Assembly (NCBI RefSeq): GCF_003334385.1
Contig: NZ_QOWN01000189.1
Reading direction: 5' to 3' (one strand)
Length of the DNA: 365 nucleotides
Origin: Escherichia coli
GTDB taxonomy: Bacteria; Pseudomonadota; Gammaproteobacteria; Enterobacterales; Enterobacteriaceae
Positions 1-365 of the stretch are shown here, piece by piece. The notes beneath the pieces were generated by a model. That model was not told the origin of the DNA. It ran no database searches and saw nothing but the letters and a program-made list of their open reading frames with translations. How positions within the stretch are numbered: position 1 is the first letter of the stretch; each line of letters starts with the position of its first letter. The position numbers were made by a program, and so were the translations under genes.

Positions 1-365
1 GCGCTGTTGGTCGCCAGGTAAAGATGCGGGCTTAACCGGATATCCGGCGGCAGCGCCCCCCACAGCCGCGCCAGCGTGTGGCCGTCCGGCTGCGCTGCCT
101 TACCACCGCGCACCAGCCACATTGACTCGCTGCGGCTGTACACCGCCTCCCCCGGCAGCAGCGGCTCAAAGTGAATGCTCCGCCCGCCGTTGTCGTTGAG
201 TACCAGTGCATCATCGCGTAGCTGTAAGCGGATATCAGAAGGCGCTTTCCAGCCGGGGCCAAACACTCCCACCGGCGCGGGTGTCCTGGTCCGGTAGCTG
301 CTGTAGGTGCGGGAGAGAATGAACGGCAGCGGGCCGGGCAGCGCAAGGTCCGTCTCGCCGGGCAG
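1..365 (-). CDS. rhs: Internal fragment (partial at both ends) of an Rhs-family protein gene, covering the conserved N-terminal region upstream of the YD-repeat core; in-frame codons run from + position 365 down to 3
   Basis: Seen in sequence: this minus-strand frame has 121 consecutive sense codons with no stop, while the other frames I translated (minus frame 3 and all three plus frames) contain stops. Third-codon-position GC is about 79% by hand count (25 of 121 codons end in A/T) and CTG dominates for Leu, as expected for a real gene in a GC-rich enterobacterial-type sequence. The translation reads as a plausible protein rather than the Arg/Cys/Trp-rich product of an off-frame read. Established knowledge (from memory, not searched): the stretch LPGETDLALPGPLPFILSRTYSSYR...GPGWKAPSDIRLQLRDD...NDNGGRSIHFEPLLPGEAVYSRSESMWLVRGG...LSPHLYLATNS closely matches the N-terminal region of E. 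coli-type RhsA/B/C proteins. Paralog cannot be assigned, so the symbol is given at family level only. Confidence 0.8.
   Translation of the reverse strand, partial: MPGETDLALPGPLPFILSRTYSSYRTRTPAPVGVFGPGWKAPSDIRLQLRDDALVLNDNGGRSIHFEPLLPGEAVYSRSESMWLVRGGKAAQPDGHTLARLWGALPPDIRLSPHLYLATNS

What the first reader, a model, noticed from the sequence alone, without database searches (positions are those of the whole stretch)
32..346. The supplied 104-aa ORF is probably an out-of-frame shadow of the real gene
The track ORF (minus strand, TTG start at 344-346, stop at 32-34) is shifted by one nucleotide relative to the frame that is open across the whole window. Its product is dominated by Arg, Cys, Trp, Ala and Gly (for example RCCRGRRC and RWRGCGGRCRR), the usual signature of reading a GC-rich gene off-frame. 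Annotating it would produce a false hypothetical protein overlapping the Rhs gene.
Basis: partly seen in the sequence, partly recalled or inferred. Interest (0 to 1): 0.3.

Follow-up and report, generated by a model that had tools for sequence, protein, structure and literature searches.

The report
Off-frame shadow ORF inside rhs gene
The 104-codon open reading frame is a chance by-product of reading a GC-rich E. coli Rhs toxin gene one base out of frame, not a gene, so the finding is correct but ordinary.

Summary
The window is 365 nt from inside an Escherichia coli rhs core gene and is 100% identical to many E. coli chromosomes. Its minus strand is the sense strand. The frame open across the whole window encodes Rhs residues 58-178 (NCBIfam RHS_core E 3.5e-75; Pfam DUF6531).

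The 104-aa ORF (32..346, minus strand, TTG start) lies on the same strand, shifted by +1 nt.
- **Composition:** its product is 56% Arg, Cys, Trp, Ala and Gly, with 9.6% Cys.
- **Family matches:** it has none.
- **GC pattern:** its GC is highest at codon position 2, the shadow pattern.
- **Codon usage:** it fits host codon usage poorly.
- **Ribosome-binding site:** it has no Shine-Dalgarno core.
- **Conservation:** stop codons break it in K-12 rhsD (95.9% identical DNA) and in every ~77-80% identical paralogue, while the Rhs frame stays open.
- **Selection:** dN/dS is 0.08-0.44 in the Rhs frame and about 0.9-3.6 in the ORF frame.

Only 17 of 5.8 billion database proteins resemble it. Sixteen are Rhs N-termini or garbled versions of them, and one is a VgrG fragment; all drift into this frame. 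In the two whose DNA I examined, the cause is a 1-nt homopolymer deletion. The exact product is absent from 15 billion proteins. Seven alternative-frame ORFs of at least 104 aa exist in this one gene's core. Nothing here is novel.

The parts
1..365 (-). Internal segment of an E. coli rhs core gene (T6SS-associated Rhs toxin), codons 58-178. This is the real coding frame and it is open across the whole window.
   Evidence: 100% identity to many E. coli chromosomes, annotated 'RHS element core protein' or rhsD. In L001 the window maps to 6001-6365 of a CDS starting at 5830, and (6001-5830)/3 = 57, so it is in frame. NCBIfam NF041261 RHS_core matches with E 3.5e-75 over profile positions 58-178. 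Pfam DUF6531 matches with E 4e-15. dN/dS is 0.08-0.44.
32..346 (-). 104-codon +1-frame shadow ORF (TTG start at 344-346, TAA stop at 32-34). It is non-coding in this frame.
   Evidence: Searches give the coordinates and frame. It has no family match. Stops break it in close alleles and in paralogues. dN/dS is about 0.9-3.6. Its codon log-odds are about -0.5. It is absent from 15 billion proteins.
203..205 (-). Position where K-12 rhsD and allele L006 carry a TGA in the +1 frame (window TGG, K-12 TGA). This truncates the shadow ORF to 47 codons while Rhs changes only conservatively (A->G, V->I).
149..153 (-). G5 run on the sense strand (C5 on the + strand). A 1-nt deletion here in a metagenome contig (L014) produces database protein P0008, an Rhs N-terminus with a +1-frame tail.
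   Evidence: Alignment; coordinates.
331..333 (-). CCC run on the sense strand. A 1-nt deletion here in a draft genome (L015) produces database protein P0003, annotated 'type IV secretion protein Rhs', whose tail is the shadow-ORF frame.
   Evidence: Alignment; sequence.

Best explanation
The 104-aa ORF is a non-functional shadow ORF. It is the +1 reading frame of a 67% GC stretch of an E. coli rhs core gene.

The Rhs frame puts G or C at 79% of its third codon positions. Those bases become position 2 of the +1-frame codons. A +1-frame stop needs T at Rhs position 2, followed by A or G at the next two bases, so stops are sparse there: 40 in 1,200 codons of the core. Runs of about 100 stop-free codons that begin with a weak start such as TTG therefore arise by chance. 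The Arg/Cys/Trp/Ala/Gly-rich 'product' follows from that composition.

Selection acts only on the Rhs frame.

- **Shown:** the identity of the real gene, the frame relation, the lack of conservation and the lack of purifying selection in the ORF frame.
- **Inferred:** that the ORF is not translated into a functional protein.
For: 1. **The real gene.** The window is 100% identical to many E. coli chromosomes, and RefSeq annotates only 'RHS element core protein' or rhsD over it in the hit rows listed. The frame was checked in one locus. NF041261 RHS_core matches at E 3.5e-75 and DUF6531 at E 4e-15.
2. **Frame signatures.** GC by codon position is 0.68/0.54/0.79 in the Rhs frame and 0.54/0.79/0.68 in the ORF frame. 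Codon log-odds are +0.21 (rest of the rhs core) and +0.01 (neighbouring genes) in the Rhs frame, against -0.48 and -0.51 in the ORF frame.
3. **Start site.** There is no GGAG, GAGG or AGGA in the 25 nt upstream of the TTG.
4. **Not conserved.** The ORF is intact only in the window and three alleles at least 94.8% identical to it. A TGA interrupts it in K-12 rhsD (95.9% identical) and in L006 (94.0%). One to three stops interrupt it in all five paralogues at 77-79% identity, and one of these also lacks the TTG. The Rhs frame is open and colinear in all of them.
5. **Substitution pattern.** Variable columns by Rhs codon position number 36/27/61. dN/dS is 0.08-0.44 in the Rhs frame and 0.88-3.6 in the ORF frame.
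6. **Databases.** There is no Pfam, NCBIfam or PHROG match. All 17 similar proteins run from a real upstream frame into this one: 16 start in the Rhs N-terminus or a garbled version of it, and one starts in VgrG. In the two whose DNA was aligned, the cause is a 1-nt homopolymer deletion. The exact ORF product and four allelic versions are absent from 15 billion proteins.
7. **Length is ordinary.** A +1-frame ORF of this length arises in 8.1% of synonymous shuffles, and the same gene core holds six longer alternative-frame ORFs.
Against: The same interval is free of +1-frame stops in only 4.2% of synonymous-codon shuffles. That is mildly unusual on its own, but unremarkable given five alternative frames and a 3.6-kb core. 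The ORF is intact in several closely related alleles, though at 95% or more DNA identity that carries little weight. I examined no expression data, so low-level translation cannot be excluded.
Confidence: 0.96

Rival explanations
1. A young overprinted (overlapping) gene. Under this reading the +1-frame ORF is a recently born protein-coding gene, restricted to the RhsD/RhsE-like allele clade and translated from the TTG inside rhs.
For: The ORF is intact in the window and in three alleles at least 94.8% identical to it. The interval is stop-free in only 4.2% of synonymous shuffles.
Against: The ORF is broken in K-12 rhsD and in L006, which belong to the same clade at 94-96% identity, and in all more distant paralogues. 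dN/dS is at or above about 0.9 in that frame, with substitutions concentrated at its codon position 2. The start is TTG with no Shine-Dalgarno core, codon log-odds are -0.5, and Cys is 9.6%. No gene caller produced it as a stand-alone protein among 15 billion proteins. It has no family match.
Confidence: 0.02
2. Programmed or slippage-driven frameshifting. Under this reading ribosomes or polymerases slip at the short homopolymers (sense-strand CCC at 331-333, G5 at 149-153). This would produce a truncated Rhs N-terminus with a +1-frame Arg/Cys-rich tail as a regulated second product.
For: Database proteins with exactly this architecture exist, such as P0001, P0003 and P0008. The shifts examined map to homopolymer runs.
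Against: In the two cases examined the shift is a deletion in the assembled DNA, not a translational event. The shift points differ from protein to protein, and each frameshifted protein was seen on only one to four contigs, many of them short or draft. That pattern is what assembly errors, sequencing errors or sporadic pseudogenes produce. The tail is not conserved. No slippery heptamer or stimulatory-structure family was detected, and Rfam returned nothing at E <= 1.
Confidence: 0.01
3. The ORF region carries a functional non-coding element, either RNA or DNA, and the open frame is incidental to it.
For: None specific.
Against: Rfam returns no match at E <= 1 on either strand. The substitution pattern shows the three-base periodicity of the Rhs coding frame.
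Confidence: 0.01

Closest known systems
Shadow (spurious alternative-frame) ORFs in GC-rich genes
   Same: A long stop-free run in a non-coding frame of a high-GC3 gene. Its GC peaks at codon position 2, its product is rich in Arg, Ala, Gly, Cys and Trp, and it starts at a weak codon. It has no homologues apart from frameshifted copies of the host gene and is not conserved among relatives.
   Different: Nothing of substance. It lies on the same strand in the +1 frame, whereas the longest shadows in this gene are antisense (up to 397 aa).
E. coli Rhs core proteins (RhsA-E; NCBIfam NF041261 RHS_core), T6SS-associated polymorphic toxins
   Same: The true coding content of the window is residues 58-178 of such a protein. 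It is 100% identical to annotated E. coli genes, lies directly downstream of vgrG, and belongs to a gene with a GC-rich core and an AT-rich C-terminal tip.
   Different: The 104-aa ORF itself is not an Rhs protein. It only shares the DNA.
Overprinted / out-of-frame remodelled genes in the E. coli pangenome (Watson et al., Mol Biol Evol 2021, PMC8788219)
   Same: Public protein sets contain Rhs N-termini fused to the alternative-frame tail. That is the 'ORgene' architecture.
   Different: Here the fusions trace to single-base homopolymer deletions in isolated assemblies, and the tail shows no constraint. That paper does not mention rhs in its main text.

Membership tests
Rhs core protein (NF041261 RHS_core), applied to the whole-window frame | Sequence match to the RHS_core profile | tested here: met
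   E 3.5e-75, 253.7 bits over profile positions 58-178 of 1261. The curated cut-off of 2000 bits applies to full-length proteins and a 121-aa fragment cannot reach it. The full gene in L001 is annotated rhsD / RHS element core protein.
Rhs core protein (NF041261 RHS_core), applied to the whole-window frame | Genomic context: vgrG upstream, GC-rich core with an AT-rich variable C-terminal tip, and a small downstream gene | tested here: met
   In L001, vgrG lies at 3637-5763, rhs at 5830-10053 and ydcD at 10037-10519. GC is 0.61-0.69 in the core and 0.29-0.48 in the last ~600 nt.
Genuine protein-coding gene, applied to the 104-aa ORF | Open frame conserved in relatives | tested here: not met
   Stops interrupt it in 7 of the 10 homologous segments compared with the window, including alleles at 94-96% identity. 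One segment lacks the start codon.
Genuine protein-coding gene, applied to the 104-aa ORF | Purifying selection in its own frame (dN/dS < 1) | tested here: not met
   dN/dS is 0.88-3.6 in the ORF frame and 0.08-0.44 in the Rhs frame.
Genuine protein-coding gene, applied to the 104-aa ORF | Homologues in protein databases independent of the host gene | tested here: not met
   No Pfam, NCBIfam or PHROG hit. The 17 similar proteins all run into this frame from a real upstream frame: 16 start in the Rhs N-terminus or a garbled version of it, and one starts in VgrG. The exact sequence is absent from 15 billion proteins.
Genuine protein-coding gene, applied to the 104-aa ORF | Host-like codon usage and codon-position GC pattern, and a ribosome-binding site | tested here: not met
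   Log-odds are about -0.5 per codon. GC peaks at codon position 2. There is no Shine-Dalgarno core within 25 nt upstream of the TTG.
Genuine protein-coding gene, applied to the 104-aa ORF | Evidence of translation (ribosome profiling, proteomics) | not testable with these tools
   One literature search listed no paper that mentions rhsD together with ribosome profiling or out-of-frame translation among its ten top-ranked results. No raw expression data were available.

The most novel reading that the evidence does not exclude
The +1-frame ORF is a very young overprinted gene, or a pervasively translated proto-gene, confined to one clade of E. coli rhs alleles. It would yield a small Arg/Cys-rich peptide from within a T6SS toxin gene.
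Probability: 0.02. Interest if true: 0.45.

Novelty: not a real feature. Interest (0 to 1): 0.04.

Why it matters
Its value is mainly in annotation hygiene. Calling this ORF would add a false hypothetical protein on top of a well-known Rhs toxin gene. The case also shows how such sequences reach public protein sets. Single-base homopolymer deletions in rhs assemblies create 'hypothetical proteins' whose tails are this same off-frame sequence. A naive homology search therefore returns apparent 'homologues', and these should not be read as support for the ORF.

Tried and rejected
- **Family searches on the 104-aa product.** NCBIfam, PHROGs and Pfam returned nothing, even at permissive thresholds.
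- **Homology search of 5.8 billion proteins.** It gave 17 hits that at first look like homologues, with E-values down to 1e-49. Reading the sequences and aligning two encoding contigs showed these are frameshifted rhs genes, so I rejected them as support.
- **Cluster P0008 and its 195 members.** I considered whether this indicates a recurrent, perhaps programmed, frameshift. The listed members are mostly partial Rhs N-terminal fragments from short contigs, clustered through the shared in-frame part, so I rejected the idea.
- **Rfam scan of both strands at E <= 1.** No hit.
- **Literature search for rhsD with out-of-frame translation or ribosome profiling.** None of the ten top-ranked papers listed mentions rhsD. 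The E. coli out-of-frame remodelling paper does not mention rhs in its main text.
- **tblastn against plasmids for more distant Rhs homologues.** The non-enterobacterial hits, at 33-47% amino-acid identity, are too diverged and too partial for a nucleotide-level frame comparison. I did not use them beyond fetching one locus (L013).
- **Genome contigs and metagenome scans.** I did not run them. The E. coli alleles and paralogues already break the ORF, so the cost was not justified.

Full report
**Observation**

The window is 365 nt and 67% GC. The ORF listing finds one ORF of at least 60 aa: 32..346 on the minus strand, 104 aa, TTG start. Window 344-346 is CAA (TTG on the minus strand) and window 32-34 is TTA (TAA on the minus strand).

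A six-frame translation shows that the minus-strand frame starting at base 365 has no stop anywhere in the window. The ORF's frame is the same strand shifted by +1 nt. The product has 18 Arg, 10 Cys, 4 Trp, 15 Ala and 11 Gly out of 104 residues (55.8%). It has one acidic residue against 19 basic ones.

**What the DNA is**

The window is 100% identical to many E. coli chromosomes. 3,871 of 5,426 complete E. coli genomes hold a match, with a median of three places per genome. The annotated feature under the match is 'RHS element core protein' or 'rhsD' in the rows listed.

In E. coli C (locus L001) the window maps to 6001-6365 of a 4,224-nt CDS that starts at 5830. The window therefore begins exactly at codon 58, and the whole-window frame is the annotated frame. 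That gene lies directly downstream of a T6SS vgrG gene and is followed by ydcD, yncO and ISAs1 transposase pseudogenes.

The translated whole-window frame matches NCBIfam NF041261 RHS_core at E 3.5e-75 over profile positions 58-178. It also matches Pfam DUF6531 at E 4e-15. The gene has the classic Rhs composition: a 61-69% GC core with GC3 of 0.72-0.84, and an AT-rich C-terminal tip.

**Frame signatures**

GC by codon position is 0.68/0.54/0.79 in the Rhs frame, which is the coding pattern GC3 > GC1 > GC2. In the ORF frame it is 0.54/0.79/0.68, so the ORF's GC peak falls on its second position, which is the Rhs wobble position.

| Codon table used for scoring | Rhs frame (log2-odds per codon) | ORF frame (log2-odds per codon) |
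|---|---|---|
| Rest of the rhs core | +0.21 | -0.48 |
| Four neighbouring genes | +0.01 | -0.51 |

The ORF frame scores no better than the third frame of that strand. The 25 nt upstream of the TTG contain no GGAG, GAGG or AGGA.

**Is the ORF longer than chance?**

It is not. The +1 frame of the 3.6-kb core has only 40 stops in 1,200 codons. I shuffled synonymous codons among identical amino acids in the core 2,000 times. A +1-frame ORF of at least 104 aa appeared in 8.1% of shuffles, and the same interval was stop-free in 4.2%.

The real core contains seven alternative-frame ORFs of at least 104 aa. The longest is 343 aa within the core (397 aa across the whole gene) and lies on the antisense strand. 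The ORF in question is the shortest of the seven.

**Conservation**

I compared the window with ten colinear rhs segments from E. coli chromosomes and plasmids, at 98.1% down to 76.7% DNA identity.

- The Rhs frame is open in all ten, and the proteins align without gaps.
- The +1 ORF is intact only in three alleles at least 94.8% identical to the window.
- K-12 rhsD (95.9%) and allele L006 (94.0%) carry a TGA at window 203-205. It arises from changes that are conservative in Rhs (A->G, V->I).
- All five paralogues at 77-79% identity have one to three stops, and one of them has TCG in place of the TTG start.

Variable alignment columns number 36/27/61 by Rhs codon position. Nei-Gojobori dN/dS is 0.08-0.44 in the Rhs frame and 0.88-3.6 in the ORF frame. 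Selection therefore acts on the Rhs frame only.

**Databases**

The 104-aa product has no match in NCBIfam, PHROGs or Pfam. A search of 5.8 billion clustered proteins returned 17 hits.

Their sequences show otherwise. Nearly all begin with the genuine Rhs N-terminus (MSGKPAARQGDMTQYGG...) or a garbled version of it. One begins with a VgrG fragment. They switch into the +1 frame at different points, and some switch back and forth.

I aligned two of the encoding contigs with the intact gene. The cause in both was a single-base deletion in a short homopolymer: sense-strand CCC at window 331-333 in a draft genome, and G5 at window 149-153 in a 565-nt metagenome scaffold. None of the 17 occurs outside an rhs gene, and none starts at the TTG.

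An exact-sequence look-up among about 15 billion proteins found none of the following: the 104-aa product, three allelic 104-aa versions, or the 47-aa K-12 version. The 195-member cluster around P0008 consists mostly of partial Rhs N-terminal fragments grouped through the shared in-frame part.

**Other checks**

Rfam finds nothing on either strand at E <= 1. The plus strand of the window has only ORFs of 25-40 aa. A literature search did not list any paper on translation of an alternative frame in rhsD among its top results.

**Conclusion**

The ORF is a shadow of the rhs gene. It exists because high GC at the Rhs wobble position depletes stops in the +1 frame. It should not be annotated.

What remains untested is direct translation evidence. 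I put the probability that the ORF is a functional or proto-gene product at about 2%. The finding is correct, useful for annotation hygiene and not novel.

Noticed in passing
window 149-153 and 331-333 (sense-strand G5 and CCC runs); loci L014 and L015: Single-base deletions in these short homopolymers, seen in public assemblies, create 'hypothetical protein' or 'type IV secretion protein Rhs' entries. These consist of an Rhs N-terminus fused to the off-frame tail, and they show up as spurious homologues of the shadow ORF.
   Followed up: yes
L001 5830-10053 (the full rhs gene that contains the window): The same gene holds much longer alternative-frame ORFs, mostly antisense: 397, 240, 168, 144, 138 and 121 aa. 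They are further candidates for false gene calls. I did not examine them individually.
   Followed up: partly
L001 9400-12365: GC drops from 61-69% in the rhs core to 29-48% in the last ~600 nt (the variable toxin tip). Downstream lie ydcD (overlapping the rhs stop), yncO and two ISAs1-family transposase pseudogenes. This is the classic Rhs element layout.
   Followed up: no
hit H81 (NZ_OL790696.1): A 4.8-Mb E. coli record sits in the plasmid collection. It is evidently a chromosome filed as a plasmid.
   Followed up: no
hits H82 and H88 (Klebsiella oxytoca NZ_CP069916.1, 19 kb; NZ_CP069926.1, 5 kb): Small 'plasmid' records from Klebsiella oxytoca carry E. coli-type rhsD and rhsB segments, at 97.5% and 76% amino-acid identity to the window's Rhs frame. 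Possible causes are contamination, misassembly or transfer.
   Followed up: no
L012 (CP048292.1, 7-kb linear 'plasmid') and L008 (NZ_CM172715.1): L012 carries an rhs fragment with several frame disruptions inside the window-equivalent region. In L008 the rhs gene is annotated as a frameshifted pseudogene. Indel-damaged rhs copies therefore occur in assemblies.
   Followed up: partly
window 56-61: There is a C6 run on the + strand (G6 on the sense strand) within the Rhs coding frame. It is another homopolymer where indel errors would shift the frame. I did not inspect any database example.
   Followed up: no
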